Positions 22,302-60,367 of a DNA stretch of 64,000 nt are shown piece after piece; position 1 is the stretch's first letter; every line of letters starts with the position of its first letter. The notes below the pieces were generated by a model. The model saw nothing but the letters and a program-made list of their open reading frames with translations. It had not been told where the DNA came from and did no database searches. Made by a program: the position numbers and the translations under genes. The stretch is from a virus, in IMG/VR virus record IMGVR_UViG_3300045988_143823; one strand, written 5' to 3'.

Positions 22302-25300
22302 TTAAAATACTTTAATCCATACACGCCCATTAACTTTAACTTTTCCGGTCCCCCATTCTTCGTAATCAGGAACTGCTGAAATTGTACCAATCGCACAATA
22401 ACCTTTATTTTTATATTCTTCATCAGTCATAATAGAAACTGTTCCATTAGGACCAGAACATACTGGACGCCCAATATTCTTTTTAAATTCTTCATGAGAT
22501 TCATATGGATAAGCAAGAACACGTCCACTTACCGCTATTGGAGTTTTTGCCTATTCAGTTTCACCAATGGCAAAACCAAATGTATCAGATGTGATATTCG
22601 CGCCTGGCATCATGCGCTCAGTTGAAGTAATAAGAGTATCGTCACCCACTTCAATCACGCATTTACCTGATTCAATAGTATCTCCTTCACGGAATTCAGC
22701 ATAGTCATTCCATACTGCACCCCAAAGTTTATTTCCTCGTAAAACTCCAGTTCGAGTATTAATAGTCATTGTCATGCCAGCATTAGTTGAAGAACATCCA
22801 TCAACAAAACCAATACTCTACCAAGATTTAAAAATTAAATTGGCTTTTCCAGTAGTCCCTAAAATACTACCATCTGCATCTCCATTTCCAACATACATTC
22901 CATTATTTCCACCGGCTAATCTATGACAAATCATTGCTCCAGTATTAGTAGCAGTTGATGTAGTGGCGGGCAAAGAACAATTAATACTTCCATTCATAGT
23001 TCCGCCAGATAATTTTAAATAATTAGTATCAATCTATAAACCATTTATATCTCCCAAAGTTTTACTAGCACTATCAGCATTACCATGAAAATAAACATTA
23101 GTACCATCACTTTGAACTATCCACTATGTTTTAATACAATCCCATAATCCATATAACTATGCGCCACCATTATCGCGAGATAATTCGATATAACCAGTTG
23201 AGCCATTATTTACTCGGAACCCCTATCCAGCCTTATCAACAGCCAATTGACCAGTCATTGTATCTCCGGTTTTTTTGACATAATTAGAATCATGATTGTG
23301 TGAACTTGCTGCTGCTCCAATATCTGATAAAACTTGAGCTGCTGTGCGCTTATAAATCCAACCATAACCATCAATAGTAGCAAAATCTCCAGCTTTATTT
23401 CCAGCATTAGTAGTTTTTAACCACGTGCCTTCAATATAACCATTAATGCCAATACTAGAAGAACCTACTTTTAATCCAGTAGTATTAATTTGAGCAACTT
23501 CAGATACATTAGCATAAGCGCCATTATTTCCACCTGAATAGGTTTTAAATGAAATTTTATTTCCTTCATAATTTGTAGTTGTAGTAGCAGGTAAATAAAT
23601 TTCATTCACATTCATTTGATTGAAATGACCACGACTAGCTTTAAATGCGCAACCAATATTCTCCGCTGTATTTTCAATGTCTGGGCAATAATCAGGATGA
23701 GTAAATTTAGCTTCTCCTTGATTTTCAATACTACCATTTGTTTTTAATAATCCGGTCATTGTATCGCCAGATTTTTTTACATACAAACTATCATGGTTAT
23801 GATTTCCAGCTGCTACTCCTAATTCATTTAAAGTCCAACTTACATTAGAACTACCATCTACAGTTTTTTTAGCTGTTCCAATAGTAAATGTTCTTGGTGT
23901 TTTCCATTTATCAGCTGTGTCAGCATTACCTTTAAATTGAGTAGCTTTAACATTACCATTTACTTCTAATTTCTCTGTTGGCTAAGTAATTCCAATACCT
24001 ACATTACCAGAGCCATTTGCATTAGCATTTAATACTAATGGCTTAGTCTTATCACCATTTCCGTCGCCAACAGTAGAGACATATAAATCAACATAATCAG
24101 TACCATTAGGAACATTTACAGTGCTTGCGTTAAACTAAGCACTTCCACTATTAGTTTTTAAATCAAAACCTTTAGAGAAATGGGTTTTATCATTTAATGT
24201 TTTTTCTCCAGCAAACGTTTGAGTTCCAGTAGATACAACACCGGATTGACTAGCTGAAGCATCTCTTACTGTTTTTTTAGTTGCAGTAATTTTACCCTAA
24301 GTATCCTATGATACTGTATCAATAAATGAAATATCTTCATTAGACGCCGCAGGACTAGGTACTGCTGTTTGAATCTTTTTATATACCTTATCATGATTAT
24401 GATTGCCAAGCGCAACTGAAGTCGCTCCAGTACCAGTTGGTATAGTAAATTTTAATTCTCCAGCATTATTAACTGATTTAGCTGTATATGTTAATCCACT
24501 CCAACTACCAGAAGTATGATGGCTACTCTATTCCCAATTACCATTTTCAGCAAGGAATCTTTTAGTTGTATTAGTAGTATCAAATGTCGGGCCTTTAGTA
24601 ATTTTTCCGTCGGCATCTGAGTATACAATAGAATTAGTTTGTACTACACCAGCCTCATTTGTTAAATAACCATCACTACTGATATTGCCGTGAATATGAG
24701 GTTTTAATGCATATGAAGTAGAACTTCCTAAATCAACCCAATTTCCATCTATATCATATAAATATTCTTTTTTATCTCCAGTGCAAATAACAACATTACC
24801 AGCTACAGCTGTGACAGTAGTTCCATCAATAAGAGTTACTTGAGAACTGGTTGGCTTTGTAGCTACACGTCCAATATATACTAATGCACCAGAAATTTTT
24901 AAATCTGCCGCGTTAACATCGATTGTTCTAACCGCGGAGCCATCATAACTGCCTTTTGGAGTACCACCTACACTAATACTTAAGGCATGCTCAACTTTTC
25001 TTGCAATAGTAGCAGTCTTTGCATTACCATTAATATCTCTATCTAATGTTTGCCCAGTGACAATGGGTATTCCGTTTTTAAAATAAACTGGAGCGTTTTC
25101 GCTACCAGCATTGGTATTTAATTTATCAGCGCTTGTTGCAGGACCTCCCGCAGAAGAGGAACCTGCATAATCATGAGTATGGCCACTATTTGATTTACCG
25201 CTTAATAATGTATCAGTTTCTGTAATAGTATATACAGGTAATGGAATATCTTTATCTGTAGTCTAATTCGCAGTAAATGTTTCATTTACCTTGACTGGCA

Positions 25301-27485
25301 TTTTGCCAACCTTAATTGTTAATTTACCATTTCCAATAGTAGGAGCTGAAGGCAGAGCAATTGAAACCTCATCATTAATTGCTGTATTAACATGCCCCTA
25401 TTTATCAATAGTAATACGAGGAATATTAAGGGTTAATGTTTTGCCAAACTCACCAACTAATGATTTATTTGCATTACTTGTAGTAGTAATAGAAGAGACA
25501 TTATCTGCCATAGAAGGACCTTTATCGGCATGAGTGGCTTTATAGCTAACTGTATTTATGCCACCAGTTCCTTCTAATTTAATTAGCGCATCTTCTTTTG
25601 AATTAGAAGTATCAACATTGGCTGTAATCTAATGAGTGTGGCCAGTATCAGATTTACCATCTAATGCGGCTTGTAATTTATTAATATCAGCAATTTTATG
25701 TTTATGCCCTGTATCAGATTTACTATTTAATGTTTTTTGTAAATTTGTAATATCAGAAATTTCATGATTATGTAATTTAGCAGCCTTATCATCTAATGTT
25801 TTTTGTAAATTTGTAATATCAGAAATTTCATGATTATGTAATTTAGCAGCCTTATCATCTAATGTTTTTTGTAAATCTATAATATTAGAAATAGTATGAG
25901 TGTGACCAGTATTAGATTTATTATCTAATGCAGTTTGTAATCCATCAGTATCTGCAATTGTATGTTTATGATCAACATTTGATTTGTCGGCTAATTTTTC
26001 TGTTAATGTTTTCCAATTCCCAGAGCTATCTTTAAATTTAATATCAGATGTTAAATATAAATTTTGCCATGGATTTGATGTATTACCTAAATCTATTGAT
26101 ATATTTAAAGGCTCTTTAGAATTATTAATTGGTGATAATGATGCACCATTAAAATCTACTGCCTATTTATCATTAACTAGTTTAGTATGAGTATGATTTG
26201 CTACAGCTAAATCGTTAAATGATTTACCACTATCTTTAATAGTTCTACCTTTATTTCCGCTAAAAATAGCGATATGCCCATCAGTAGAACTTTCATCTGT
26301 ATTAATTACTGCTCCATCAATATTAGTTTGAACAATAGTCCAATCTCCTGCGCTATGAGTAGTTCCATCTTTAATACAAATAATTAAATCGCCAATTTCA
26401 CAAACTTCACCATTGCCAAGGTATTTACCATTATTACCACCTTTAATATCATAAACGCGATAAGTTTCACCCGCGTTATGTTTGGCTGGTAATTCATGAA
26501 TAGTAGCAGCTGCATCTCCACCGATAGTACCTTTAAATACCATAGCATCATTAGTGGCTAATAAATTATTTAATTTCTTATCAATATCTGATTTTATATA
26601 AAAATTATTTAATGACCAATCATGTACTGCGTCACCCCGTGCAGCAGCATATTGGTATAAATTGTTTCCATAATTTTCCCCGGCTTCACCAGCTTGTAAA
26701 ATTACATGTCGACTAGCTTTATAAGAATTATCACCATCATAGTTAATATATAAATTATCTTTTTCACAAGCCCCGTCATCTGTTGGCTCTGATATACCAT
26801 AAATACCACGAGTCACTAAACCCGCATTTTGAGCAGTTCCACCAAATACTGCCCCCTACTATAATGTAAGTTGATTAGAAATTATAGTATTTGTTTTATT
26901 AGTACCAAGGATATTAGCAGCATCGCCTTTAAAAATATGAGTACCACCTATTACAACATTTCCTTCAAATGATGCGCTACCATTCATATTTAAAAGAATA
27001 TTATTGTTTATATTAATACCCCAATTATTTACTAATGATTCTTCACCAGTATTTATAATTTTAATACCAGTGCCAGCTCCTTTATTATCAATAATTAGAG
27101 CCGAGCCTTCATCATTATTTTCAATTAAAACTTCATCTTTACTTCCTGTTTCAACATTAGGAATTACTAATGTCCCATCTTTATAACCAATACTACCATA
27201 TTTTAATTCAATTAAATTTTTAGTATTGTCAGCTACTTTGAATGCTAAAATAGGATAAGTTTCTGTATCTTCAATTTTAGTAGCCTTAATCCAATCAGTG
27301 CTTAAAGCACTAAGAGGAATACGATTATCTCCAATTACAGCTGGAGATGCATTAGTACCATCACCATCAATATCAATGTAAAATTTACCATCATCTGATG
27401 TAAAATATGCAAAACCTTCTTTTGCATATGGTACATTTGTCATTAAATTTTTTGACAAACCTTTACTTATTTTAAATAATGCCAT
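22302..27485 (-). CDS. giant tail-fibre/receptor-binding protein (about 1727 codons) with roughly 20-30 in-frame TAG codons
   Basis: RBS GAAGGGAG then ATG at 27485. ORFs 26859, 26163, 23223 and 22551 are all in one frame. Every fragment boundary checked in this gene is TAG. The protein carries repeated SGDTMTG tail-fibre motifs, an HxH 22-aa repeat array and a C-terminal domain paralogous to gene 28457..29326. It ends at a TAA at 22302. Confidence 0.6.
25600..25990 (-). repeat. tandem array of at least 6 copies of a 66-nt repeat encoding a 22-aa HxH unit (AKLHNHEISDITNLQKTLDDKA and variants)
   Basis: Two identical 66-nt copies at 25741 and 25807 plus diverged flanking copies, in-frame in the fibre gene; resembles phage tail-fibre His-x-His repeats. 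Confidence 0.7.
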
Positions 27486-27645
27486 TAATTTGTAAACTCC
27501 CTTCTCTGAAAAAAAGTTTATAAAAATATTTCTATTAATTTGTAAAAATTTGAATTATATTATTATTTTAATTAGGCCATTTATTTATAATATTAAAATT
27601 TAAATTTTTACAAATTAATAGAAAACGAGTGAAAGGAGATTAATT

Positions 27646-28416: not shown

Positions 28417-28420
28417 AATA

Positions 28421-28459
28421 AAAAGGCAGATAACATAATTTGTTATCTGCCTTTTTTTA
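28421..28459. terminator. bidirectional hairpin terminator (aaggcagataaca...tgttatctgcctt)
   Basis: 13-bp stem plus a T-run between convergent genes. Confidence 0.65.
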
Positions 28460-29326
28460 TTTTATTTTAATCCAAATTCGATTATTGATTTGAATTTTAT
28501 CAGTACCCCATTCTTTATACTCAGGAATTTCACTTACATAACCAATTATAGCATCAGGCCATTCTTTGATTTCTTCACGAGTCATTAATGATATAGTTCC
28601 ATTAGGTCCTGAGCAAACCGCCGCGCCAGCAGTAAATTTATATCTATCTTCATAAGGATAAGCTAATACTCGTCCACATACCGCAATAGGTGTTTGTGCT
28701 TTATTAGTTTCACCAATAGAAAAACCAAATGTATCTGAAATAATATTGCTACCCAGCTGTAAACGCTAAGTTGATAATTCTAAGTCTCCATACCCAGTTT
28801 CAACTACACACCGGCCAGGCTCTTTAATTAACGATTCACGATATTCAGCATAATCATTAAATACAGCACCACGAACTTTTTTAGCTACTAAAACTCCATT
28901 ATCACCGTTTTTTGTTTTACTACCATCGCCTAATACTAAATTCTATGATCGATCAAATCCTTTAATTAATACGCTCTATTTCAAAATATTATTTTCTTTA
29001 ATATTAAACATACCTGGAGTTAAATTATCATTTTGAGTTAAATTAGTTTCGGGGGAAAAACTTAATTCACCGGTAATAATATACTGCTTATTTAATACAT
29101 CATCATCAGTCGGATCTTCAATAATTAAGTAGGTTTTATTACCATCTGGAACAATTTTTACACTTCTTACATTCTAGATTTGTAATCGCGTACCATCTTT
29201 ATTCGGACGAAGACGAATGCCAGTTTTTTTACCTGCAACTGGATAAGCTTTTATATTAGCAAGCATTTTATTTAATGCTTCATTTTGTAAAATTATTGTA
29301 GACTCATAAGGTGAATTACTACTCAT
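28457..29326 (-). CDS. fibre-tip/receptor-binding-like protein (about 289 aa) paralogous to the C-terminus of the giant fibre; 4 in-frame TAG codons
   Basis: RBS AAAGGAGAA; shares GAVFNDYAEYRE, SDTFGFSIGET, VCSGPNGT and YPYE motifs with residues encoded at 22302-22800. Confidence 0.5.
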
Positions 29327-29404
29327 TTTTCGTGTTCTCCTTTCTCTCATAATTTTATATCTATTTATTATAGAAAATTATAATAAATCATTATTTATAT
29401 TTAC

Positions 29405-29445
29405 CCAAAAAAATAAAGGGAAGACTAATTTAAAGTCTTCCCTTT
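29405..29445. terminator. hairpin terminator (aaagggaagact...agtcttcccttt)
   Basis: 12-bp stem plus a T-run. Confidence 0.6.
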
Positions 29446-29514
29446 ATTTTTATTTTATTAAAAATTATCAATCCACTCTAAAGCAAATGTACCTTTCTAA
29501 TGTGCTTGTTCTAA

Positions 29515-30066
29515 ATCATGAATTGCCTAAATAAATGCTTTATCAAAAACAAATTCTTCCTGAGAAATATTATCTAAATCCCAATTTTGACCTTGCTCTA
29601 CAATTGCTTCAGCAACTAATGTATTTAATTCATACATTAAATGTCCTGCAGCATTAAGACTAAAGAATTTAATAGCAAATTTTACAGTACCAGCATATTT
29701 AGTGGCCGCATTCTGAATCACCCATGGCATAATAATTTTTTGATTTACATTATCAGTAGTAATATCCATATAAGGCACTACATAATAATAGGCTTCACCT
29801 TTTGCATTTTGAAATTGAATAATGCAACAAGTGTTAGATAAATCCATGCCATCAAAATATCGATCAAATGTAAAGTATAAAGTCTCAGCCGAATGGTCCT
29901 GAGAGACGATAATGAAGGACTTAGGCACTTTTATTTTACGTTCATTTAAATCGATAGGGATTAACTCTTCTTTAGGTGGAGTTGGAAGGAGAATGGCTTT
30001 GGAAGTTCGCATCTGTTTGTCGATAGACCAAAGCTTATTCTCATAATCTTGATAATTAGTAATCAT
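29515..30066 (-). CDS. hypothetical structural protein (183 aa), paralog of the N-terminal domain of gene 30096..32030; one in-frame TAG
   Basis: RBS AAAGGAGAATGAATAATC; MITNYQDY...QDHSAETLYFTFDRYFDGMDL parallels MITKYKDS...GDHLAETVFFSIDRYFDYMDL. Confidence 0.45.
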
Positions 30067-30095
30067 GATTATTCATTCTCCTTTCTCCTAATTTA

Positions 30096-32030
30096 TTACT
30101 TAATATTAATATAGAATGCATCACTATTTAGTGAATAGGCACTTCCATTATATTTATTAGTTACACGAATAAAATAATTACCTTCTTGATTACCAACCAT
30201 TGAAGAGGTAATTGTAGTATGTTTCCCACCTTCAATATCAGAAGAATTTAGTTCACAAACAAAAATGGGATTAGTGTCATCACTTTCTTCACCAGGTAAT
30301 TGGTATAGACTACAAATTACTTTATCACTATATACTTTTTCATTAATAGCGGTTAAAACATATTTAACATCAAATGATTTTTGAGTGTACTTATCTGTAA
30401 CTCCATCAGTAGATGCGTTTAGGTTAATCCAATATTGTCCACCTTGTTTACTTAAACCTAAAACAATACTATTCTCTTCAATTTTAGAAGCTAAAGGAGA
30501 AACGATATATTCTTTAGATTTAGTTTCGTCTAAAGTAGTTTGATTATTTAAAAATGTTTTAACTCCAACAATATATTTACCTTCTTCGCTAACAACAAAA
30601 CTATTATTTTCAGTAGAACGAATCCACTTTGAAGTATTAATAGGAGTTGTATTCCCATCTTTATACCAAGCATATTGAACTAAAGCCTTAGGTTCAACTC
30701 CTACAGCAGGAGCTTCATAAGCATCTGTATTATCATATCCAGAAGCAGTAGCAGTTAGAGTAACTTCATTGCCAGTTAAAAATGCCACAGAATCAGCTAC
30801 AGATAAATCAATATCATAACCTTCATCTTTTAAATCACTATTATTAGAAGTAATTGTAATTTCAGCAGGAGCATCGGGTTCAGGGCAAATTACCACTGGA
30901 GTATGCTCAAGAACACCTTGACCAATTTTCTTATTTTCTTTATCAAAAATAATTCCTTGAGCCTGAATATAATATTCACCGACACCACTTACTTCAATAG
31001 TGGCATAACGAGCATATAATTCACTCTTGTTTGGAATAGCAATCTCTAGATCATTCCAAGTTCTAACGTCTTCGCTAGAAGCAACCTTATAAACGCTGCC
31101 CTCTTTTATATAATAAGTGCCAGTAGGGTCTAAAGGAATACGTTTATCATTTTCATCTTTTTTAGAAACTAAAACATATTCATCTACTGGGTCATCTTCT
31201 CCAGCAGGAGTAGAATACTTAATGTCCGCCGCACCTGCTTGTGCGCGAGCATATAATTTTACAGGTACAGAAGATAATGTTTGAGAGTCGCCATTATCTA
31301 CCGCATTACCAGCTAAATTTATAGTCTATAAAGCTACTGTAGCGTCGGGGTCAGTGACCAAGCCATTGGTAAGCCATTTTAAATCATCAACTTTAGCTTC
31401 GCCTTCACCAAAACTGCTGTTTTGAAGCATATTTAGAATATCATCATTAACATTAATAACTGTAGGATTAATTAAAACTAATCCTTCTTTAATATTAATT
31501 GTTGAGATTAAAGTATTTAAACTATAGCTAATAACATTATCACGTTCAGCATAAAATTCAACTGCAAAACTTAAAGTACCACTTTTACCAGTTAAATCTT
31601 TTGCCACAGGCCAACCAAAAATAATTTTTCCAGGTTCAGCATCAACGCTCTTAGAGAAATTAACAGATTGACCAGAAACATCACCAATTTTCCAATTGAT
31701 ACGAATATTACAATTGTTTAAATCCATATAATCAAAATATCTATCAATACTAAAGAAAACAGTTTCAGCTAAATGATCTCCTTGAACTGATAAACCATTA
31801 GCAGTAAAATCAGAAGGAATTGTAATTTTGCGGCTATTAGCATCAATTTCAAACAAAGGCTCATCCAAAGGAAGTCTTAAAAACTTTTTATCTAACTCAC
31901 CAATTTCTTGTATATATCCGAAAAAGCTCTCAAGGTTATCAATTTGAATTTTACCATTACTAGCTTTGTCAATATCTTCATACAGTTTTTGATAAGCTAA
32001 TTTAACAGAGTCTTTATACTTTGTAATCAT
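30096..32030 (-). CDS. tail-associated structural protein (about 644 aa), one in-frame TAG at 31326
   Basis: RBS GAAAGGAAGG; ORFs 31326..32030 and 30096..30896 are one frame, with no TAA/TGA found across the gap on manual translation. Confidence 0.5.
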
Positions 32031-32059
32031 AGACTAGAAAACCTTCCTTTCTAAAATAA

Positions 32060-32096: not shown

Positions 32097-32142
32097 TCTA
32101 TTTTTCAAAAAAGTTATATATTAGATAATTGGAACTACCCAA

Positions 32143-32358
32143 TTAAACTTCTTTCCACTAATCTAATTCGTCTTCTGGAATAACTACATTTTGAACAAAG
32201 TCTTTTCCATTTTTAGTAAGACGTTTATTATTATCAGCAAGTAATTGAAGTTTTCTAACATAATATATATCTTCAAGATGAATGGGAGAAAGAATCGTTC
32301 CATTAGTACCTAAATACTCATACATTACAATTTTAGTCATTTTCTTTTCTCCTTTCAT
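32143..32358 (-). CDS. small hypothetical protein, one in-frame TAG
   Basis: ATG overlaps the upstream gene's stop (ATGA); continues 4 codons past the TAG at 32158. Confidence 0.35.
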
Positions 32359-40569: not shown

Positions 40570-40602
40570 AAAAAATGGGAGAGGAATTTTCCTCTCCCAA
40601 AT
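40570..40602. terminator. hairpin terminator (tgggagagg-aatttt-cctctccca)
   Basis: 9-bp GC-rich stem preceded by an A-run. Confidence 0.55.
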
Positions 40603-46300: not shown

Positions 46301-47006
46301 TAACTTTTTCATATTCATCATTATCATCAGGAGCGTCTACTATAGCTTCAAATTTAGGAGCTTTAGAATCTAAACTCGCAACCATAATATACTTTTCAGT
46401 AATTGTAGTATTATTACTAACTGAACACCAAATTTTTTGCCATACAGTATGGTCATAATTAGCTTGATAATGTTTTTTATCTATTTCTTTATTTATAGAA
46501 TATTCACAATTTTCATCAATTCCATCAGGTGTTAAATTATTTAATGGGTCTTGAGTAATACTATCTTTTAATAAATAATATCTCTAATTGGAATCATAAA
46601 AATCAGTTTTAGGGTCTACTTTAAAATAGTCTCCATAAGGACGCTATGAAGTAAGTTTTGGGTCCATATCACCAATAGTCTAAATACTACCTTGAATTTT
46701 ATAAACCCACAACACTGGACAATTAGCCGTAAATTTTTCAACTTCATTGCCCTTTTCGTCATTAGCAGTTTGATGCCACTAAGCTTTTATTTCTGTTGAT
46801 ATATAAGGACTATATCGACGTTCGCCATAATTAATAAATACATAACGAGTGTTATACACTCCATCGCCATTAATATTCCCAGTAGAGGAGCCATCTGGAG
46901 CGCGTTTAGCTATGGCTTGTTCCATTTCATAACGATTGGTATAAGTTTTATCAAATGTTAAAGCAATTCGTGGATTAACTTTTAAATTACCATAAAATGA
47001 ACTCAA
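43380..47006 (-). CDS. large structural protein (about 1208 aa), about 14 in-frame TAG codons; TTG start
   Basis: Embedded RBS AAGGAGGGG then TTG directly after the upstream TAA. The gaps 44541-45452 and 43383-43787 were translated: 7 and 4 TAGs, and no TAA/TGA. Ends at a TAA at 43380. Confidence 0.45.
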
Positions 47007-47348
47007 TTAACTCCCCTCCTTTTCGTATAAAATATCTATTAATAAATAAGCATCTTGATTTTCATCTATATTAGTTAATGACATTTCATCAAAATTAATA
47101 GATGTTACTACACCAGAGCCCTAAGTCATATCTAATTCATACAAACCAACTCCACCAATCATTATATAGTCTTGATTGGCATTAAGTCTAAATTTAGTAC
47201 CTGGTAAACTTTGGATTCCTAATTTTATAATAGGAGTATAATCATCAAAAATTACTCCTGACATTAATTTAGCTTTAGTTATTGTTACTGGATAATTTTT
47301 TTCATTTAATTCACCAAAATATCGAAACTAAACAACACTTTTAGCCAT
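47007..47348 (-). CDS. small structural protein (about 113 aa), 2 in-frame TAG codons
   Basis: RBS GAGAGGAGACGGAGTA then ATG; TAA stop abuts the next gene's TTG. Confidence 0.4.
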
Positions 47349-47364
47349 TACTCCGTCTCCTCTC

Positions 47365-50175: not shown

Positions 50176-53100
50176 TGATACATACCCGCCTCTATCTCTT
50201 TAGTAAACCCTCTATCGAGAGCTAATATAAATTTATTCCAAGCATCTTTTACTGCTTCAATTAATTCACGCATCTATTTATCTTTTGATACAGTATCATT
50301 AATATCATAATAGTCATAAAATCGTGTTGATAGGAATCCTCTAAAAATAGTAAGATATTTTTCATATTCAATCTAATAATATTCAGCTTTTGTTTTATAA
50401 TTTTCTTGTTTATTAGTGTAAATAGTAATTAAAAATTCTGCCTATTCAATCGCGTCTTTATAAGCATTTATATCTTTGTTTAAAACATTTTCAATATACC
50501 AATAAAAAATTCCCATACTTGTAATTGAAGAATAATTTTCATTAGGGTTAGATAATTTAGGTAAATTAGTAAATAATTCAATTAATAATGGATCAATTCT
50601 ATATTCATTAAATAATTGAGTATTACACCAATAGCACAATTCTGAAATTTTTGCCAATCCTTTTAACATTAATAAATGCTGATATCTTACTTCATTAATA
50701 GTAGGATTTGTTTTTGAAATATTTACCTTATATTCTGACAAATTATTTAAAGATTTTATTTTATCCTAAATAAAAATTTTATTGCCTAAAGATTTATAAC
50801 TTCTTAATAGAGTGGTATATAATCCATCTAAATTAGAATTATATAACTCTAATACTGATTTTAATGTACCATAATCAGATAATGCATTATCTCCACCAGT
50901 ATTATTAGAAATAAAATTAGAACGTGTTTTATAAGTATAATTTATAATATTATCAATAATATTGCGTTCAGGATGTTTTTTAATATCTTCACTATCACTT
51001 TGATTTTCTTCACTTAAAACAGTAGAAATAAATTTATTATTAGAATATAAATTAAATGTTCCCTATTGTAAATTAGCAAGTTTAGTAGCAGTTAAATATG
51101 GTTCAATAAAATTATAATTATTATTTTTCTAATCATTCGCTGATACTGCTAATTGATTAAAATAATCAATAAAACTTTTTATTAAATAATCTTTTTCATT
51201 CAAATAATAATCTACATTTAAATCATAATTATTTAAAGTAGCTTGTTTATAAAAATTATTTTCTAAATAATAATATTTTCCCAGAGTTAAGAAAATATCA
51301 TTTTTTTCAATTTTTCCTACTAATTTATAGGTTGAAGTATTTATGCCATTACTAACCAATAGCTATTGATAATTTGTAATAGTAGAATTATAATTAGTTA
51401 TTATAGTATTAGCATCTAATAAACGAGAAAATCCAGTATTCATATAATTATTTGTAGCATTTGGAGTAATTAAATCAATAATAGCATCTAAAACATATTT
51501 ATATCCATTTTCTTTTACTGGTAAACAGGTATTATCAATAATATATAATAGTTTATTAATTTTAGCTATACGAATATTAGTGGCTTCAAGATTATAAGTA
51601 TTCTAATCAAATTCAATACTATTAAAAATTGAATTATCTCCTTCATCTAAATTATTTCCTTCAATATCTAAAATAATATTACGATTAGAACTAGATCGAA
51701 TAGTACTTTGTATAGAAGACCCTAATTTAGTTATATAAGAATCTGAATATTTACGATTATTCTTCTCATAATAATAGAATGAATATAATAATCGATCTCT
51801 AAAAGCTAAACAATATAAAAGATCTCTTTTTCTATCATTCCACCAACCTGAGAATGTAATAGATTTCTATAAATAATAATTTAACTTAGATGATAAACTA
51901 GTACTATCATTTATAATTAAATTAGGCCAATTTAATTCTTTTGCTGACTAACAAACATAATCTAATTTATCTGCCGCTAAAATAAATTTAATAATAGAAG
52001 AACTGTCTTCATCTTCCAAGCCATTCTATTCAGTACCGCCTTGTAATTTTAAATTTAAGGCAGTATAATCAGAAGCAATAGTATTTCCTATATCAATTAA
52101 ACTAGATACCTAAAATAAATCCTTTAGAGTATCCATATTGTCTAAATCAATTTTAGTATTTTTTAATTTCTCAATTAAATCAATACAAGCATCAAAAGGA
52201 TATAAAAAATTATCATTATCATCAGTGCCAATAAAATTAATAAATGCTTTAGTATCAGAATCTAAATTATCAGTCTATCCTAATAATTTATTTAAATTTC
52301 TACGAGATTGTTTTAAACGTCCATAATACCATAAAATTTCATGTATGCCACCCAAAACTTTTTGATATAATAATTTATCTAAAGCATCATCGTCATCTTG
52401 GTCTTTTATAATAGCTAAATATCCTATTATAGTATCATATAATCCTTGAATAGAAGTCCAAGCATCAATATAATAATTCATTTGAATCCGGCGCGCCTCA
52501 GCTTCAGAAGTATTAGTGCTACCTAACCCTGCTGAAACTCTATTATAATGATTTTTTATATTAGTTAAAATCTCAGTAATATTAATTGAAGATTCAATTT
52601 GCTCAAGATTATCTTTTATTGAATTATAATTAGAAGAAGTAACATTTGTTAATTGATTAGCTATACTCTAATAAATTAAACAATATAACCACAATGCTGC
52701 TTTATATCTATAAACAATTGCATTATAACCATCATCAGTAAGAGTTTGACCATTTTTATCAGTGATTTCATAAATTTGATTTAATAAACCACCATAATCA
52801 TTCGCAATTGAATTAGCATTTTCAATAGCAGAATTCTAATTATTATAAAGAGATTGTAATAAAGAATCTAATTTATTTAATTTAGAATTAATACCTTCTT
52901 TAGTCGGCTGCTAAATTAAATCTAATAAATCCTATTCTTCTTCATCCTATAATTTTAATTCAGTATACATACCTTTATTTATCTACATTCGCTTAATTGT
53001 TTTTAATACTTCTTTTTTTATTTCAGCTTTCTTCTCTTCAGTAATATTATTTGACCATAAATCAACAATATTAAAATTCTTTAATGCTGCTGGTTTCATA

Positions 53101-56100
53101 GTATTTAAAATTTCATTAATAATATTGCGATCCTGCCAATTAATTATTCTCTCTAAACGAGATTGATGATCATTTAAATCTTCATAAGGAATATTATTTG
53201 ATTCTGATAAACCATTTAATAAAGTATTATAACTGCGAGTTAAAGTTAAATATTTCTAAAAATTATTATCAGCTTCTGCTATTAATTCATAATTACGATA
53301 TAAAGCTCTTAAAAATTCTGATTGCTATATATAATTATCTTTCGCGCGTCTTGTTTCACTATCATTTACTTCAGTATAATAATCTAAAATCTCTAACTAA
53401 AATGTTGCTTCCGCGATTAATCCTGTGCCAATTTTAATTATATCAGGAGATTTTAAATTAGAAAAATATCTATTATCATCATACTCTAACTCTACAGAAT
53501 TATTAAAACGAATATAAAAATCTTTAATCTAATCTTGCTATACAATTGATTTAGCAATATTATTTTCATCTACAGTCCAATCAGTATGATAAAATTCAGG
53601 GACTGGATTATAGTCTTCTTTATTCAACCAACGAATAGCTGTTGATAAATAATCTTTTTCATGAATTAATTCATTATTATTTTTTATAGTTTTATAGAAT
53701 GTAGCATTTTTTAATAAATCTTCTAAAGATTTTATCTAAGCGTCATAAAAATCATTAATAGCTTTATGATCAAACATAATAGCAGTTTGTAATTTTTTTT
53801 CTCTTAAATCATTTAATGCTTTAATTTGATTATTAATATAATCTTGATATTTATCTGTAGCCCCTTTAGGAATAATATAAACATCCTTAACTAATTTATA
53901 TTTTCCATCTTTTTCAACATACAACTCTAATTCATCATTTAAATATGTCTTTTTATTTTTAATTAAAACATAATATAATCCAACTTCTTCGTCATATTGA
54001 ATGTCATGTAATTTTTCATAACGATATTTTTCATTGATATAAAATGAAGTGTCAAAATCGTCAATCACTGATTTCCAATAACAGTCATAATATTGACCGG
54101 TCTTTACTCCAAAAATATTAGTACGCTATGTTGGCATCCAAGAATCAAATTGAGGGAAATACTCGTACATCTAAAATACACAAAATTCATCATTTACATT
54201 AAAATATTCTCTTACTTTTGGAGTTAATTCATCTATTGGATAGGGCTATCCAAAAGGAGAAACAGAATATAATAAATACTGACTACCAAAATTTTCTTCA
54301 TAATCATATTTAGAATAACTACCATCTGCTTGAGGTAGACACACATGCGTTGCTTTCCCATCACTAATAGCCCAAGGCACTCCAGATGGATTAGCCGCAG
54401 TTATTTTTGCCCATCCTTCAGGAGTTACATATTCATAAGGGACCGCATAAATAGGTATTAATTCACGTACTTTTATATGTAATTGTTCTAAATTTAAAAC
54501 TTTTAATTTGTCTCTGGTGTAATTATGGAATTGAGTATTAATATAAGACATAATGTTGCCAGGCTCAAATCCTTTGGCAGCTAAAGTATCATAAATTTTT
54601 TCAAATGCAGAATTTACATCTAATTTATTTAATACAATTCTCTCATTTAAAGAACTCAAAGCATTTCTAAATTTATTAATATCTGACTCAGTTAAAGACT
54701 AATCTTTCTATTTAGTAACTAAAGTATCTAATTCAGTTAATACTGGATTAACTCCCACAAACTAATGGCTTAAAATCGTCTTTAATTTTACTTCAGTAAT
54801 TGCATCAAAATTTCCGTATCGTACTCCTTGATATTGGCACTCTAAAATACCTACTGGATGAGTGTATTCATCATTAGGTATTCTAATACGACTTATTTTT
54901 CGGCTTGAATTATTATAAGTATATGAGCCAGTAATTCCAATTAAAATTTCATCTTCTGTCTTTTCTGATATATCTCCGTAAGTTAAGAAAATACTAGATC
55001 CAGGCAATAAATCTTGAACAGAAAATTGACTAATATTATTAGATTCAAAATCTATAATAATATCCATGCCAGGCTCATATTCATTTAAATAATAACTGCG
55101 CCATAATGAAACATATTTACTAACAATATCAGATTTTATAAATCCGTATTTTAATAAATTTTCATAAGTTAAATCCGCTATTTCAACACATTGTCCGGTA
55201 AAAGAATGAAGCATGCGCCCTAGTGTATCTACTGGAGACATAGAAACATTCATAATACGAATGATAAAATTCCCTTCTGGCCCAGACCGGAATAATTTAG
55301 GCTATCCATTATTTAACCAATCTAAGACTTCCATTTTAAAATTGCGCTCTTTATGAATATTATTTTCAATTAAATCACAAGGATTTTCTAATATTTTTTC
55401 CATGCGATTAAAAAATTCTGTACTGTTTTTAATATCAGCATGGTCAGTACAAGTTCTAATATAGTCTTGAATTTCTCTATCATAAAATAAAATTTCATCA
55501 TCCATTTGGTAAGAAATTAATCCACTAATAGGAAATTCTTTATAAGCAACTTTTCCATTTCTGAAAATAAAGGGAAATTTATTGCCAATTGTATTTGTTT
55601 TTTGTTCGAGTATTGTAGTTTTAAATGAAGATACTTTAGGATTGAATTTTACTTTTAAAACTCTATCTCCATCATATAAAAAGATATCTTCAAAATCAAC
55701 TGAAACAGGTTCACTTTCAATGCGAGAAGAATAAATACCAAACAAATTATATTGAATTATACCATAAATATATTTAACACCTTGTTTAACGGTATAATCA
55801 TTATAATCTATTAATGATGGTTTCATATTTTCAAGTTTAAATCGTTTTAATTCTAACCAAGAACGATATTCATCTTCTTCGCTGGCCCTCACTAAAATGT
55901 ATTGACCAAAATAAGTATCTTCTTGTTTATCTACTTGGTATTCAATATTAGAATCATATCCTAAAATATGTAAATATTCTTTAGCTAATTCAGTAGATAA
56001 ACCAGCTGTAGTAATAATATTTTGACATAAGTTAATTAAACTCTAATCTGTAACAATCTGGTCTAACTCTGTTTCATCAACATTTATAGAATCCTATAAA

Positions 56101-57440
56101 TAATTTAAATAAGAATTTACTCTATTCTATAAAATAATATTTAAATTTTTATATCCTTCAAATGAAGTAGCAATATATACTGTAGTATTCCATAAAAATT
56201 TACTAAATAAATTATAATAATTTATTTCTTCTTTTTCTTTACCAATATTTTCTATAACAGAACCTAAATATTCTCCTAAATATAAATCAAATTCTTTTGA
56301 TTCCATAATTAAAGACTCTAAAATACCAGTAGAAATACCACACATATCATTTAATAATGAAACATTATCTCGTAAATATATTCTATACTTTTCTAAAATA
56401 TTGACAACAAATCCTGACTCCTAAATTTGATCAACCCATTCTTTAATTTGCGGGTTATCTGAACTATTTGTTCCTTGATAGAATCGTTTTAATTTTGTCA
56501 TTAAATTTTTAGAATAATTATAATAAGTATTAATACGAGTCATTTCCTTAATAACATTTTCTTGACGAACTACTCGTTCAATACCATGAAAATTAACATT
56601 AATACATCCACTATTTGGGTGAGGTTCTGTTGTGATTGAAATACTTTTACTAGGGGCTAATAAAGTTTCTGCTGTTACTCTATACATTGGGCTTGATGCC
56701 ACATATCCATTTAAAGTTGTAACAGTATAAACTAATTTATAAACTTCACTAGTTTTAATGAAACTACTTAAAACGGCTGAATCAGTAGATATTCCATATT
56801 CAATATCATTAGAATTATTATGTAATAATTCACCAGTAGTATAATATAATTCCCCTTCTTCTGTATAAAATGAAAAATTATAAGAATATACTTTTTCACT
56901 CTAATCAAAATCAGAAGATAATTCATACAAACCGAATAAATTATTATTAAATAAATTAATACTATCAATTGAATATCCTTTAACTGAAATTTTAGGCTCC
57001 TGAATACATTTAATAATACCAATAGTAGAATAGTATCCTGTTAACTTTTTAATAACATCAACTGTAACAGTTTCTTTCGTGTCAGGGTCTTCTTTTGTTT
57101 CAGTCTATGTATATTGTGAAATATAAGCTAATTGTACTTTGTAATACTAGCCTTCATTTAATAAGGCTCCCTAAGAAGGAGGTATAGTAAATGTAACAGT
57201 AGAATTAGCAGTATTAAAATCCATTGATTCAATTGGATTAAATAAATAAGTATTTGTTGAAGCAGTTTTTAATCGCAAAACAAATCCAACAAATTCTTTA
57301 TCATTAACTGCGGCACTCGCAGTAAAAGGAATTGTAATCTAAATATCCTTTAATACTTTCGTGTCGCCTGTTTCAATATAACTCTTACAAAAAGCAGGTA
57401 AAGTACCTGCTATTACAGGAGGATATAATCTTTCAGGCAT
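50172..57440 (-). CDS. giant tail/baseplate protein (about 2422 codons) with an estimated >35 in-frame TAG codons
   Basis: RBS AAAGGAGAATGACT then ATG at 57440. Nine ORF-track fragments are in one frame, and the 50.7-56.7 kb frame was translated by hand and checked against three track proteins. No TAA/TGA was found in-frame until the TGA at 50172. Confidence 0.4.
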
Positions 57441-57466: not shown

Positions 57467-60367
57467 TTATTTATTTTCTAATGCTTGGATACGTTTTATT
57501 AAATTTGGAATCGTTGTTTGCTATAATGTAGTGAAACTTGTTTCCAAAGTTTTAACGCGTGATTCTAATGTAGCACATCTATCAATTAAAGTTTTAATAG
57601 CAGAATTTGAAGATAGATTGCATTGGACAGGGACTCCATTTAAAAAATATACTGGATTTTCAGAACTTCCAACATTTAATAAAGCTTCATGCTCAGCATC
57701 CACCAAATTCTAAGCATTCTAAGCTGAAGTCGCAGTTTTTATCCAAGCTTCTCCCTAATCATTTATTTTAAATATATTCTTTTTATCATCAAAAGCGTAT
57801 AAACCATATTCTTCTAAATTATTATTATTTTTAAATGTACCCATTAGTACACCTTTAGTCTAATTACTATTTAATTGTCCTACTGTAGTAGAAATTAATT
57901 GTAAAGTTTCGTCATTAAAATCAATAACTGCCCCTTGTAAATCATTCCACATTGCAATAGGATAATTATTTTTAATCACTACAATAGGCTATATCCATAC
58001 TATTTTGTCTGTTTTATTCTATGCCTATACATAGAGACAAGTTGAATTATTATCTTGAGAGGAAAATACAGTAGGCGGAATAATTATATTATTTTCAAAT
58101 TTCCACTATGTTAAAATTTTGTTCTCATCATTTTTAATATTATTCTGCAAGCTCCAATTTAAATTTTCAGATACAGTTTCAAACCCATCCATTTCAGTTG
58201 TATATTTAAAAATTTGATAATTAGTTTTTTCATATACCGGTTTTTTACCAGTAATATCATAAGTTATTATAGAGCATCCATCAGCACAAACATATTCTGG
58301 ATTAAATGTAGTAGGAATACTAATATATCCCTCTAAATTATTATTATTATAAGTTCCTTTTACTTTAACAACTAATTTTGATAAAAGATTAATATCAGAT
58401 TCTGTTAATGCTTCATGAATTTTAATAATATTATCCACTAATGAAATCTTATCAGAATTTAAAGAATTATAATACCATTCATAAGTTAATTCAATATCAG
58501 AACGTCCTTGCCAAGTATAATCATATAAATTAGCAACTATTCGATACTCCTTATCTTGAGAAATAGGACAAATAACTTTACAATCTTTATACTAATCTTT
58601 AATTTTTTCTTGTAATGATAATTGAAGCACACAATTAGCCCCAGAAGAGCCGCTATTACCAAATAATAATTCAATTGAACTGGTGTATATCTAATTATTA
58701 ATTTCAATTTCACATTTAATTGTATTATTTCTAAAAAGTGGATTATATAAAGAGTTAATTCTAAAAGGTATATAATATATTTTAGTTGTAGGATTTAAAT
58801 AGTCATACATAGGAGCAGTATTTTTATCAGTATTTAATATATGCTCAAACTCATACTCATCATGCTTATTTATCTTTCCATTTTCCACTGGAATAATCAT
58901 TGTTTTTTTAGAAGGTAGCATATATCGTAATCGAACACCGTTTGTCAATGTTGTAGTCTTACTAGTATCTTTGCTATTAAATTCTACCGCAATATAATGG
59001 ATTTTTTCTCCATTAGAACGAGCTAATAATTGGTTATCTTGTCCATATATATAAAATGTATTATTGTTATTATTCGTAAATAAATTTAAACCAGCTAATA
59101 AACCAATATCTGGATTATATAATGTATTTGTATAAGAACATGACTAAGAATATCCTAAAACTTCTCTTGTTCCTATTTTACCTTTAAAATAAATCCTATA
59201 TGGTTGAGTAAAAATCTAATCTCCTAAACGAAGAGAGGTAGAAATTGTATTACCCGCAAGAATAGGAATCTCATCATAGCTGCCATCTGCTCTTACACCT
59301 AAGCGCCACCAACCTTGACCAAATACCGAACTGTTTTCAGTTACATCTTTATCATAAGAATATAACCATATTTCTGCCCCAGTAAATGTAGCCAAAGTCC
59401 CCGAAGTCATATCTATAACTCTAAACCCCATTGTAACCTTACGCTTTTCTTCATCTTGAGAGGGAGTGAACTAATATCTATTGCTACCTCTTGGATATAA
59501 ATAAACGCCAATATTACTATCAGTTGTAATATCTGAAAAATTACTTTTATAATATCCTAAATATAAATTTATATTTTTAAAAACAATTGAAAAAGAATCT
59601 GAACTATCAATTTTATTATTATCACTATCGTAAAAATTGCCATTTTCCCATAATTCAATTTGGATATCATTAATAATTAAATTAGTAACATCTATATCAA
59701 AATATTGAGAAGTATAACCTCCTGTTTTATATGCACTTAAAAATAACATATCTTTATTAGAGGATATTGTTGTGGTCTGTCGAGTAAATGTTTTTAATTC
59801 TTTTGTGGTCTAATCTTTTCCACTTAATATAATACGAATACCATAAGTACCTTTATTTAAAGTTTTTGTGCCATTATATAAATCAGCCATTAAATTATAA
59901 GAAATACGTAAAGTTGTATATCCTACTAATTCATTATTATTTATATAACTTTGAGGGCCCATAATAGTTTTACTAGATTCTCGACCCTCAGAAGTAGGAA
60001 TTACTGTAATTTCTTTACTCTAATTAAAAAGCTAATTAGCTGCATAAAAAGTTTTAGAATCATCTTTACCGATTACTTCATAATCACTAATTACACGTCC
60101 AGTAATCAATTTCTTACCAGAAAAATCACCTTGTGGGATTAATACATAAACTTCTTCATTAAGAGCATAAGATTTATCTTTTTCATTAACAAAAACTGTT
60201 AATTTAGCTCCTTTATAATTTACAATATATTTCTATGCTCCTTCAATACTTTCAGGAACACTTTCTATTACTCCAACTATTGTCTAGTCAAATGGTAAAT
60301 TCTATAATCGAGCAGATACAATTGTGTCTACTGATCGGAATATTTTTTCATTTAATTCATTAGACAT
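57467..60367 (-). CDS. structural protein (about 966 aa), possibly distal-tail/baseplate-like, with multiple in-frame TAG codons
   Basis: RBS AAAAAGGAGAACGAATT then ATG; ORFs 59471, 59216, 58691, 58106 and 57521 are in one frame; TAA stop at 57467; sits immediately after the tape-measure gene. Confidence 0.4.

What the first reader, a model, noticed from the sequence alone, without database searches (positions are those of the whole stretch)
22302..60367. Six very large tail, baseplate or fibre proteins
Once TAG is read through, six genes of about 2720, 2422, 1727, 1208, 966 and 936 codons occupy most of 38 kb on the minus strand. Each is bounded by a proper RBS/ATG (or TTG) and a TAA/TGA, with terminator hairpins between groups. 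An adsorption apparatus this large and multi-component is unusual. It suggests a complex baseplate with several receptor-binding activities.
Basis: seen in the sequence. Interest (0 to 1): 0.7.

Follow-up and report, generated by a model that had tools for sequence, protein, structure and literature searches.

The report
Giant tail-tip and fibre genes, TAG-recoded phage
The six huge genes are real once TAG is read as glutamine, and they form the tail-end (hub, fibres and partners) module of an uncultivated gut phage. The same module with equally large genes occurs in dozens of related phages, so it is large but ordinary for this lineage.

Summary
With TAG as sense, six minus-strand genes of 1727, 2720, 1208, 936, 2422 and 966 codons sit at the stated coordinates. 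They contain no in-frame TAA or TGA and 14-41 in-frame TAGs each.

TAG codes for Gln. Full-length homologues span every TAG, and TAG swaps with CAA/CAG between orthologues about ten times more often than background.

The genes lie directly downstream of a tape-measure gene. Order: TMP, F(966), E(2422), D(936), 113 aa, C(1208), 312, 547, B(2720), 71, 644, 202, 297, A(1727).

- **A**: a tail fibre (PTR repeats, 12 HxH motifs).
- **B**: ends in a BspA-type leucine-rich-repeat domain.
- **E**: carries FN3/Ig-like domains, an unannotated conserved core and a roughly 1300-residue helical tail.
- **F and C**: placed by conserved synteny only.

No depolymerase, peptidase or lysin module was detected.

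The order F-E-D-113-C-312 recurs in about 60-70 related viral contigs, with protein sizes that vary several-fold. The lineage is related to phAss-1 and to Enterococcus EF1/VRE9-like phages. The verdict is a new member of a known kind, of modest interest.

The parts
60480..64000 (-). 3' part of the tape-measure gene. More than 1146 codons lie in the window, with 19 TAG, and the gene runs off the window.
   Evidence: The product is coiled-coil rich. It aligns with the C-terminal part of the 2803-aa (L005) and 1327-aa (L004) proteins; the L005 protein and the 2754-aa tape measure of L003 carry PF10145 PhageMin_Tail. It also aligns with the annotated tape measure of Enterococcus phage VRE9_3. The full gene in the same species is 2757 aa (L090).
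60447..60476 (-). Terminator-like hairpin between the tape-measure gene and F.
   Evidence: 12-bp stem with 6 GC pairs, followed by a T-run.
57467..60367 (-). F, 966 aa, 20 TAG. It has a conserved N-terminal domain of about 100 aa, a beta-rich variable body and a C-terminal coiled coil. It is always encoded right after the tape measure. Proposed role: central fibre or distal-tail component (inferred).
   Evidence: The N-terminal domain is found in 71 of the related loci; the ORFs carrying it range from about 110 aa (fragments) to 2209 aa. It matches the start of phAss-1 ORF14, the 2155-aa gene that follows that phage's tape measure. It shares the motif PVYFxNG with fibre A. No match in Pfam, PHROGs, NCBIfam or the PDB.
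50172..57440 (-). E, 2422 aa, 41 TAG. Layout: FN3/Ig-like domains (about 1-290 and 495-565), a helical insert (about 300-495), a conserved core (about 570-900), a further conserved region to about 1130, and a variable helical C-terminus of about 1300 aa.
   Evidence: 68 homologues, none with a Pfam domain. An AlphaFold model of residues 1-1150 (pLDDT 67) matches only FN3/Ig folds. The core family has 2848 representatives, typically 850-1000 aa long. Family members match phrog_30026 and phrog_27355, both of unknown function. E is always adjacent to hub D, including in Enterococcus phage VRE9_3 and in phAss-1, where it is annotated 'Ig domain containing protein'.
47365..50175 (-). D, 936 aa, 19 TAG. 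Baseplate or tail-tip hub of the gp27 / Mu gp44 / Tal N-terminal fold, with a C-terminal extension. Its start overlaps the stop of E (ATGA).
47007..47348 (-). 113-aa conserved small protein between hub D and C.
   Evidence: Present in 74 related loci at the same position. No family or PDB match.
43380..47006 (-). C, 1208 aa, TTG start, 19 TAG. It has a conserved N-terminal domain of about 230 aa (FYGN...YDxTVWQK...DAP) and a variable remainder.
   Evidence: The N-terminal domain is found in 59 loci, in full-length proteins of about 350-1920 aa. The orthologue in L003 aligns over the whole length. No match in Pfam, PHROGs, NCBIfam, the PDB or the phage collection.
43344..43374 (-). Terminator-like hairpin after C. 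It reads as a hairpin on both strands.
   Evidence: 12-bp stem with 6 GC pairs, followed by a T-run.
42330..43268 (-). 312-aa protein with the fibre-type N-terminal motif.
   Evidence: Conserved in 68 loci. Motif shown. Matches phrog_24103, unknown function.
40659..42302 (-). 547-aa Thr/Gly-rich protein with the same N-terminal motif. A probable short fibre.
   Evidence: Orthologues in L003, L004 and L005. Motif shown.
40576..40599 (-). Terminator-like hairpin between the 547-aa gene and B.
   Evidence: 10-bp stem with 6 GC pairs, followed by T8.
32355..40517 (-). B, 2720 aa, 14 TAG. It has the fibre-type N-terminal motif, long conserved central regions of unknown fold and a C-terminal BspA-type leucine-rich-repeat domain (profile positions about 2360-2540).
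   Evidence: 155 homologue clusters of 2.0-2.9 thousand aa. Most carry PF13306 LRR_5 as their main or only Pfam domain. The family profile matches LRR surface proteins 4fs7 (6e-20), 4gt6 and PcpA. B alone scores 24.3 bits against LRR_5, below the 27.7 cut-off. Matches phrog_14959 and phrog_24896, both of unknown function.
32143..32358 (-). 71-aa ORF whose start overlaps the stop of B (ATGA).
30096..32030 (-). 644-aa protein. Its N-terminal domain is paralogous to the 202-aa protein.
   Evidence: 35% identity over 138 aa. Matches phrog_25888, unknown function.
29458..30066 (-). 202-aa paralogue of the N-terminus of the 644-aa protein.
28457..29350 (-). 297-aa protein. Its C-terminal 145 aa are 56% identical to the C-terminus of fibre A.
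   Evidence: blastp E-value 9e-52.
28420..28456 (.). Bidirectional terminator-like hairpin.
   Evidence: 16-bp stem, scored on both strands.
22302..27485 (-). A, 1727 aa, 17 TAG. A tail fibre.
   Evidence: Pfam PTR 'phage tail repeat like', E 4e-37, 126 bits against a cut-off of 27. PHROG tail-fibre and minor-tail families. tblastn hits to annotated tail, minor-tail and tail-fibre proteins of Bacillus phage G and of Moraxella, Cronobacter and Gordonia phages. 12 HxH motifs.

Best explanation
The region 22302-60367, together with the tape-measure gene that runs off the window at 64000, is the distal-tail and fibre module of an uncultivated gut phage. The genome is about 168 kb and reads TAG as glutamine (genetic code 15).

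The genes form at least four terminator-bounded groups downstream of the tape measure.

Group 1: F, E, D, the 113-aa protein and C. This is the conserved core.
- D is the trimeric hub that closes the tail tube. The fold is shown; the assembly state is inferred.
- E is the hub's invariable neighbour. It probably forms the ring or adaptor at the tube end, in the Dit or tube-initiator position. It is decorated with FN3/Ig-like domains and carries a long helical extension. This role is inferred.
- F is always encoded next to the tape measure. It has a small N-terminal beta domain, a fibre motif and a terminal coiled coil. It is probably a central fibre or spike. This role is inferred.
- The 113-aa protein and the N-terminal domain of C are conserved structural partners. 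The rest of C is variable.

Groups 2-4: the 312- and 547-aa proteins; B, the 71-, 644- and 202-aa proteins; the 297-aa protein and A. These are peripheral fibres or adhesins.
- A, B and the 312- and 547-aa proteins share an N-terminal motif that would anchor them to the same kind of site (inferred).
- Their distal parts differ: PTR/HxH fibre repeats in A, a BspA-type LRR domain in B.
- This fits several receptor-binding specificities.

TAG codons are concentrated in these late genes, so the genes can only be made once TAG suppression is active.
For: - Recoding.
- Tape measure upstream and conserved synteny.
- Hub fold of D.
- Fibre A.
- LRR domain of B.
- FN3/Ig domains in E.
- The E-D pair is conserved even in Enterococcus phage VRE9_3 and in phAss-1.
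- F-type N-terminus directly after the tape measure in phAss-1.
- Shared N-terminal motif and the PVYFxNG motif.
- Terminators between groups.
- TAG density is 10-21 per 1000 codons in most late genes (5.1 in B, 1.6-3.6 in three smaller ones), against 0.8-1.3 in the DNA polymerase and ribonucleotide reductase genes.
- The head and tail genes upstream of the tape measure in the same species (L090) map one to one onto VRE9_3 PHROG families.
Against: - F, E (apart from its FN3 domains), C and the 113-aa protein have no detectable similarity to any characterised tail protein, by sequence or profile.
- The model of the E core has low confidence, so the Dit-like role is positional only.
- In phAss-1 the E- and D-like genes lie between the portal and capsid genes, not next to the tape measure.
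- No suppressor tRNA lies in the window.
- Tail type is unresolved. No sheath family was found upstream of the tape measure, and tape measures of about 2750 aa suggest a very long tail. However, D's best fold matches are hubs of contractile systems, and one paper's table lists EF1 as Myoviridae (PMC6435515).
- No virion proteomics exists.
Confidence: 0.75

Rival explanations
1. TAG is a true stop. The giant ORFs are artefacts, and the region encodes many short genes or pseudogene fragments.
For: Under the standard code the region breaks into ORFs of 230-600 aa. No suppressor tRNA is present in the window.
Against: - No in-frame TAA or TGA over 936-2720 codons, while the other frames on the same strand carry 46-460 per gene.
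- Homologues are colinear across all TAG positions.
- TAG interchanges with CAA/CAG about ten-fold above background.
- The single hub fold of D is interrupted by several TAG codons.
- The related phAss-1 carries tRNA-Sup(CTA) genes (PMC10607447).
Confidence: 0.02
2. Some of the six, above all E with its 1300-residue helical tail and perhaps F or C, are not adsorption proteins. They could be internal or ejected proteins (a tape-measure-like or envelope-penetrating device), or head-associated decoration proteins.
For: - The C-terminal half of E is helical and poorly conserved, and matches only coiled-coil proteins.
- In phAss-1 the E- and D-like genes sit between the portal and major capsid genes.
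- F, E and C match no receptor-binding family.
Against: - E is fixed next to the hub gene in about 80 loci.
- E carries surface-type FN3/Ig domains.
- The hub fold of D is known only from tail tips, baseplates and related injection systems.
Confidence: 0.2
3. The module is the baseplate of a contractile (myovirus-type) tail rather than a siphovirus tail tip.
For: - D's best matches are hubs of contractile systems: Mu gp44, A-1(L), AlgoCIS, phiCD508 and diffocin.
- The order hub, small protein, larger protein recalls the hub, spike/gp25 and gp6 order of such systems (from general knowledge).
- EF1 is listed as Myoviridae in a table of PMC6435515.
Against: - No sheath family was detected among the ten genes upstream of the tape measure in the same species, nor annotated in VRE9_3 or phAss-1.
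- Tape measures of 2673-3149 aa imply tails of roughly 400 nm. The phAss-1 authors take this as siphovirus-like.
- The 113-aa protein and C matched no family at all, and therefore no gp25 or gp6 family.
Confidence: 0.3

Closest known systems
phAss-1 / proposed Phassvirus group ('Caudoviricetes code 15 clade'; Babkin et al. 2023, PMC10607447)
   Same: - A human-gut phage of over 130 kb that reads TAG as Gln, with recoding concentrated in structural genes.
- A giant tape measure followed by a protein of about 2000 aa or more with the F-type N-terminus.
- E-like and D-like genes are adjacent. The DNA polymerase III alpha and replication genes are homologous.
   Different: - Only 28-38% protein identity, and no DNA-level match.
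- The gene order differs: in phAss-1 the E/D pair sits between the portal and capsid genes.
- The D-like protein is annotated there as 'putative flagellin-like protein', whereas the fold evidence here says hub.
- In the tblastn of window proteins against the phAss-1 stretch held here (record 13277-55388), A, B and C had no counterpart.
Enterococcus phages EF1, EF5, H1 and VRE9_1 to VRE9_4 (about 134-142 kb, standard code)
   Same: - The replication module is syntenic: DnaB-like helicase, RecJ-like exonuclease, Dda-like helicase, DNA polymerase, guanylate kinase, dUTPase and resolvase.
- The head and tail gene families upstream of a 2673-aa tape measure are the same.
- An E-core protein (617 aa, phrog_30026) is followed by a D-like protein (921 aa, phrog_32343).
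   Different: - No TAG recoding.
- E is four times shorter.
- The E/D pair lies at the far end of the late region, after the lysis genes, not next to the tape measure.
- In the tblastn of window proteins against the two VRE9_3 stretches held here, B, C and F had no counterpart.
Baseplate hub proteins: Mu gp44 (1wru), T4 gp27, XkdQ, siphophage Tal N-terminal domain, T5 pb3
   Different: - No sequence-level membership: no Pfam, NCBIfam or PDB sequence match.
- D has a C-terminal extension of about 500 residues with no assigned fold, partly covered by DUF5048 in relatives.
BspA-type leucine-rich-repeat surface proteins (Pfam LRR_5; PDB 4fs7, 4gt6, PcpA 4cp6)
   Same: The C-terminal part of the B family (roughly 200-350 residues) matches these proteins (E 6e-20).
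   Different: The domain is attached to a phage protein of 2720 aa. The remaining roughly 2350 residues have no known relatives outside this phage lineage.
Distal tail proteins (Dit) with inserted domains ('evolved Dit') of Gram-positive siphophages
   Same: E has the matching gene position, between the tape measure and the hub, and is decorated with extra beta-sandwich domains.
   Different: No sequence or fold match was obtained. The conserved core begins about 570 residues into the protein. At 2422 aa, E would be far larger than any Dit I know of.

Membership tests
Code 15 (TAG to Gln) recoded phage | In-frame TAG inside conserved genes that otherwise lack stop codons. | tested here: met
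   130 TAG codons in the six genes and no in-frame TAA or TGA.
Code 15 (TAG to Gln) recoded phage | TAG positions correspond to Gln in homologues. | tested here: met
   TAG columns of E align with Q in 33% of cases in homologues of 41-54% identity, against a 4% background. At codon level, TAG interchanges with CAA/CAG.
Code 15 (TAG to Gln) recoded phage | A suppressor tRNA with anticodon CTA encoded by the phage. | tested here: not met
   ARAGORN finds no tRNA in the 64-kb window. The remaining roughly 100 kb of the genome was not available. Some recoded phages lack such a tRNA (PMC10607447).
Code 15 (TAG to Gln) recoded phage | Recoding concentrated in late (structural) genes. | tested here: met
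   10-21 TAG per 1000 codons in most late genes (1.6-5.1 in B and three smaller ones), against 0-1.3 in the large replication genes.
gp27 / Mu gp44 / Tal-type baseplate hub (protein D) | The four-domain hub fold. | tested here: met
gp27 / Mu gp44 / Tal-type baseplate hub (protein D) | Sequence membership in a hub family (Pfam Phage_GPD or Prophage_tail; NCBIfam). | tested here: not met
   No hit above E = 0.01. The only PHROG hit is 'tail protein' phrog_1887.
gp27 / Mu gp44 / Tal-type baseplate hub (protein D) | A trimer at the tube end, in contact with the tape-measure C-terminus. | not testable with these tools
   Needs a multimer model or cryo-EM.
Phage tail fibre (protein A) | Fibre repeat domains and similarity to annotated fibres. 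| tested here: met
   PF12789 at 126 bits against a cut-off of 27. PHROG tail-fibre families. tblastn hits to tail and fibre proteins.
Phage tail fibre (protein A) | Presence in virions and receptor binding. | not testable with these tools
   Needs experiment.
BspA-type LRR (LRR_5) domain (C-terminus of protein B) | A match to the LRR_5 family. | tested here: met
   B alone is below the cut-off (24.3 against 27.7 bits). Most homologues carry PF13306, and the family profile hits 4fs7 at 6e-20.
Distal tail protein, Dit (protein E) | The Dit N-terminal fold, or membership of the Sipho_tail family. | tested here: inconclusive
   No Pfam, PHROG-function or PDB sequence match. The core is modelled at low confidence, and the fold searches returned only FN3.
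Distal tail protein, Dit (protein E) | A gene located between the tape measure and the hub. | tested here: met
   The order TMP-F-E-D holds in the window and in relatives. F intervenes, and the order differs in phAss-1 and VRE9_3.
Tape measure protein (60480-64000) | The PhageMin_Tail / TMP family, great length and coiled coil. | tested here: met
   The window fragment has no Pfam hit of its own. It aligns with the L005 protein that carries PF10145 and with the annotated VRE9_3 tape measure. The L003 tape measure also carries PF10145.
Depolymerase, peptidase or lysin modules in tail proteins | A recognisable pectate-lyase, glycosidase, peptidase or amidase domain. | tested here: not met
   None found in any of the six by Pfam, PHROGs or single-sequence PDB searches; NCBIfam (F, C and close proxies of B, D, E; A not scanned) and family-profile PDB searches (B, D, E, and the N-terminal domains of F and C) also found none.

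The most novel reading that the evidence does not exclude
The conserved trio F, E and C may be a new kind of tail-tip scaffold, in which extra mass shifts between three proteins from lineage to lineage.
- In most relatives F is about 1800 aa, E about 900 aa and C about 1900 aa. In the window's clade they are about 950, 2400 and 1200 aa.
- Within this scaffold, the 1300-residue helical extension of E would form a long central rod, or a device that spans the cell envelope, with no counterpart in characterised phages.
- B (2720 aa) would be a giant LRR adhesin that targets the surface of a Clostridia host.
Probability: 0.15. Interest if true: 0.55.

Novelty: new member of a known kind. Interest (0 to 1): 0.3.

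Why it matters
The result gives a corrected, code-15 reading of a 38-kb late region that standard annotation would shred into dozens of fragments.

It assigns a hub function to a large protein family: over 1950 homologues, partly labelled DUF5048 and, in one published genome, 'flagellin-like'.

It also marks out three large families of conserved but functionally unassigned tail-tip proteins (the E core, the F N-terminal domain and the C N-terminal domain) and a family of 2700-aa LRR proteins. These are concrete targets for structural work and for host-range studies on gut phages predicted to infect Clostridia.

It does not reveal a new biological principle.

Tried and rejected
- **crAss-like origin.** My first guess was a crAss-like phage with a virion RNA polymerase or cargo proteins. 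I dropped it: no such matches appeared, and the relatives are phAss-1 and EF1-like phages.
- **DNA similarity.** blastn of B against the phage collection found nothing.
- **Single-sequence PDB searches.** Searches with F, D, B and the C-terminus of A found nothing meaningful.
- **Profile PDB searches.** The E profile gave only coiled-coil noise such as haemagglutinin HA2 and SMC. The profiles of D, the 113-aa protein, the F N-terminus and the C N-terminus gave nothing.
- **NCBIfam.** Nothing for ten module proteins.
- **CotH-like domain in B.** From memory, the central motifs of B recalled CotH. Neither Pfam (on B and the precomputed domains of 120 homologues) nor the PDB profile search supports this, so I make no claim.
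- **OB-fold in F.** I suspected a gp5/gpV-type fold in the N-terminus of F. The PDB profile search of that domain found no match; no fold comparison was possible, so it remains a conjecture.
- **Mtd_N/HylP-type motif.** The shared N-terminal motif of A, B and the 312- and 547-aa proteins recalls this family from memory. Pfam did not match it.
- **Folding window sequences.** Homologues 92% and 97% identical were used instead.
- **Walking upstream.** Exact DNA patterns returned loci of only about 2 kb, so I replaced that approach with a protein-based locus search.
- **Morphology of EF1/VRE9 phages.** The literature gave only a database-derived 'Myoviridae' label.

Full report
**1. The observation**

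The window has 30% G+C. Reading TAG as sense raises the residues in ORFs of 200 aa or longer from 8270 to 18190; reading TGA or TAA as sense adds far less (8766 and 12390).

| Gene | Coordinates | Length (aa) | In-frame TAG | Stop |
|---|---|---|---|---|
| A | 22302-27485 | 1727 | 17 | TAA |
| B | 32355-40517 | 2720 | 14 | TGA |
| C | 43380-47006 (TTG start) | 1208 | 19 | TAA |
| D | 47365-50175 | 936 | 19 | TAA |
| E | 50172-57440 | 2422 | 41 | TGA |
| F | 57467-60367 | 966 | 20 | TAA |

None of them has an in-frame TAA or TGA. The other two frames on the same strand carry 46-460 such codons per gene.

GGAG-type ribosome-binding sites precede five of the six starts. D begins in an ATGA overlap with the stop of E. 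The starts chosen for E and for C (TTG) agree with the conserved N-termini of homologues.

Strong hairpin-plus-T-run terminators separate the gene groups, at 60476-60447, 43374-43344, 40599-40576 and 28456-28420.

**2. TAG is glutamine, not stop**

E, D and B each have many full-length homologues that are colinear across every TAG. F and C align end to end with their orthologues in a related contig.

In homologues of E with 41-54% identity, the columns under window TAGs hold Q in 33% of cases. Columns under ordinary Gln codons hold Q in 41%, and the background is 4%.

Database translations may themselves have used code 15, so I repeated the test at the DNA level against locus L003. Of 102 window TAGs in six genes, 20 align with TAG and 20 with CAA/CAG. 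Of 103 TAGs in L003, 26 align with window Gln codons and 20 with TAG. Background Gln is 2.2% of aligned positions.

TAG makes up 40-56% of Gln codons in most late genes, at 10-21 per 1000 codons. In the large replication genes it is nearly absent: 1 in 1318 codons of the DNA polymerase and 1 in 757 of the ribonucleotide reductase. This is the pattern described for recoded phages (PMC10607447).

No tRNA gene lies in the window.

**3. What kind of phage this is**

There is no DNA-level match in the phage collection. Protein D finds phAss-1, a human-gut phage filed under 'Caudoviricetes code 15 clade', and 134-142-kb Enterococcus phages: EF1, EF5, H1 and VRE9_1 to VRE9_4.

The plus-strand genes at 634-18318 are homologous and syntenic with the annotated replication genes of VRE9_3: DnaB-like helicase, RecJ-like exonuclease, Dda-like helicase, DNA polymerase, guanylate kinase, dUTPase and resolvase.

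An IMG/VR contig of 168,457 bp carries a D that is 96% identical. This is probably the same species. In that contig, the ten genes upstream of a 2757-aa tape measure map onto the same PHROG families, in the same order, as the head and tail genes of VRE9_3. None of them is a sheath family.

**4. The module**

The ORF at 60480-64000 is the C-terminal part of that tape measure. Full-length orthologues in relatives carry PF10145.

The gene order downstream is: F, E, D, 113 aa, C | 312, 547 | B, 71, 644, 202 | 297 | (a plus-strand ORF of 256 aa) | A. The bars mark terminators.

The order F-E-D-113-C-312 holds in three contigs retrieved through E. It also holds in about 60-70 of 79 IMG/VR loci retrieved through D.

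Sizes vary several-fold between lineages:

| Protein | Range in relatives (aa) | Window clade (aa) |
|---|---|---|
| F | about 280-2200 (full-length examples) | about 930-970 |
| E | mostly 880-1180 (2720 in one distant contig) | 2350-2440 |
| C | 350-1920 | 1020-1211 |

Very large tail-tip proteins are therefore a property of the whole lineage. The extra mass sits in different proteins in different clades.

**5. The individual proteins**

*D.* I modelled a homologue 97% identical to D, with a 40-sequence alignment (pLDDT 79, pTM 0.61).
- D is therefore the baseplate or tail-tip hub, with a C-terminal extension of about 500 residues.
- phAss-1's counterpart is annotated 'putative flagellin-like protein', which this result contradicts.

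*A.*
- It carries Pfam PTR repeats (126 bits) and hits PHROG tail-fibre families.
- It matches annotated tail and fibre proteins of unrelated phages.
- It has 12 HxH motifs.
- Its last 145 residues recur at 56% identity in the 297-aa ORF.

*B.*
- It belongs to a family of 155 clusters of proteins 2.0-2.9 thousand aa long. LRR_5 is their main or only Pfam domain.
- The family profile matches BspA-like surface LRR proteins at 6e-20.
- The remaining roughly 2350 residues have no known relatives.

*E.*
- It has 68 homologues and no Pfam domain.
- The N-terminal 1130 residues are conserved. The C-terminal roughly 1300 are helical and variable.
- A model of residues 1-1150 (pLDDT 67) matches only FN3/Ig folds. 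This fits phAss-1's label 'Ig domain containing protein'.
- The best-conserved core (about 570-900) defines a family of 2848 representatives, typically 850-1000 aa long. They match only PHROGs of unknown function.
- One of these, phrog_30026, is the 617-aa gene directly upstream of the D-like gene in VRE9_3. E and the hub are thus a conserved pair.
- A Dit-like or tube-adaptor role is inferred, not shown.

*F.*
- Its N-terminal 100 residues are conserved in 71 loci.
- They match the start of the 2155-aa gene that follows the tape measure in phAss-1.
- Near its C-terminus F shares the motif PVYFxNG with fibre A, and it ends in a coiled coil.
- I propose a central fibre or spike. This is an inference.

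*C and the 113-aa protein.* These are conserved at their positions in 59 and 74 loci. They match nothing known.

*Shared anchor motif.* A, B and the 312- and 547-aa proteins begin with a similar motif: F/I-x-K/R-G-T...G-x-Y/F-Y-F/L...D...L/F-Y-I. This would fit a common docking site for several fibres.

**6. What was not found**

No depolymerase, peptidase, lysin or lectin module other than LRR and FN3/Ig was detected in any of the six proteins. All six were searched against Pfam and PHROGs; NCBIfam covered five of them (not A), and profile searches of PDB sequences covered B, D, E and the N-terminal domains of F and C.

**7. Open points**

*Tail type.*
- For a non-contractile tail: no sheath family was found, and the tape measures are about 2700 aa or longer.
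- For a contractile tail: D's best fold matches are hubs of contractile systems, and one table lists EF1 as Myoviridae.

*Roles of E, F and C.* They need structures or proteomics.

**8. Verdict**

This is a tail-tip and fibre module with several probable binding proteins, but it is typical of a widespread, partly described lineage of recoded gut phages. It is best filed as a new member of a known kind, with a useful re-annotation of the hub family and several well-defined unknown families.

Noticed in passing
window 634-18318 (+) compared with 22302-64000 (-): TAG use differs sharply by gene class. The large replication genes have 0-1.3 TAG per 1000 codons. The tail genes have 5-21, and up to 56% of their Gln codons are TAG. 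This fits late-gene control by suppression.
   Followed up: partly
window 27646-28416 (+): A 256-aa ORF with 4 TAG lies on the opposite strand, between fibre gene A and the 297-aa gene. It ends at the bidirectional hairpin 28420-28456. It has no family match.
   Followed up: partly
window 22302-22745 (C-terminus of A) and 28457-28900 (C-terminus of the 297-aa ORF): The last 145 residues or so of fibre A recur at 56% identity in a separate small gene. This could be an alternative fibre tip, a chaperone-like domain or a cassette for tip exchange. No PDB match.
   Followed up: partly
window 29458-30066 and 30096-32030: The 202-aa and 644-aa proteins share an N-terminal domain at 35% identity. The longer one hits phrog_25888, of unknown function.
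   Followed up: no
L004 4817-6718: In one related contig, a 633-aa gene with a YcaO domain sits between a tape-measure-like gene and the F homologue. This is an odd place for a YcaO enzyme.
   Followed up: no
phAss-1 record OQ749652.1, ORF21 (27524-33163) and ORF22 (33178-35400): [quoted passage not shown] The fold evidence for D here indicates a baseplate hub instead.
   Followed up: yes
window, whole: No tRNA genes at all in 64 kb, although phAss-1 carries 36 tRNA genes, including three Sup-CTA. Any suppressor must lie elsewhere in the roughly 168-kb genome or come from the host.
   Followed up: partly
window 50172-50175 and 32355-32358: ATGA stop/start overlaps occur between E and D, and between B and the 71-aa ORF. 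They suggest translational coupling.
   Followed up: partly
L015, L016, L023 and L068, from about position 9935-9977: In these relatives the 113-aa-type domain lies in one ORF of about 1100 aa that starts where D starts. The hub and the small protein may be fused there, or the ORF merging may be an artefact of reading TAG as sense in phages that do not recode it.
   Followed up: no
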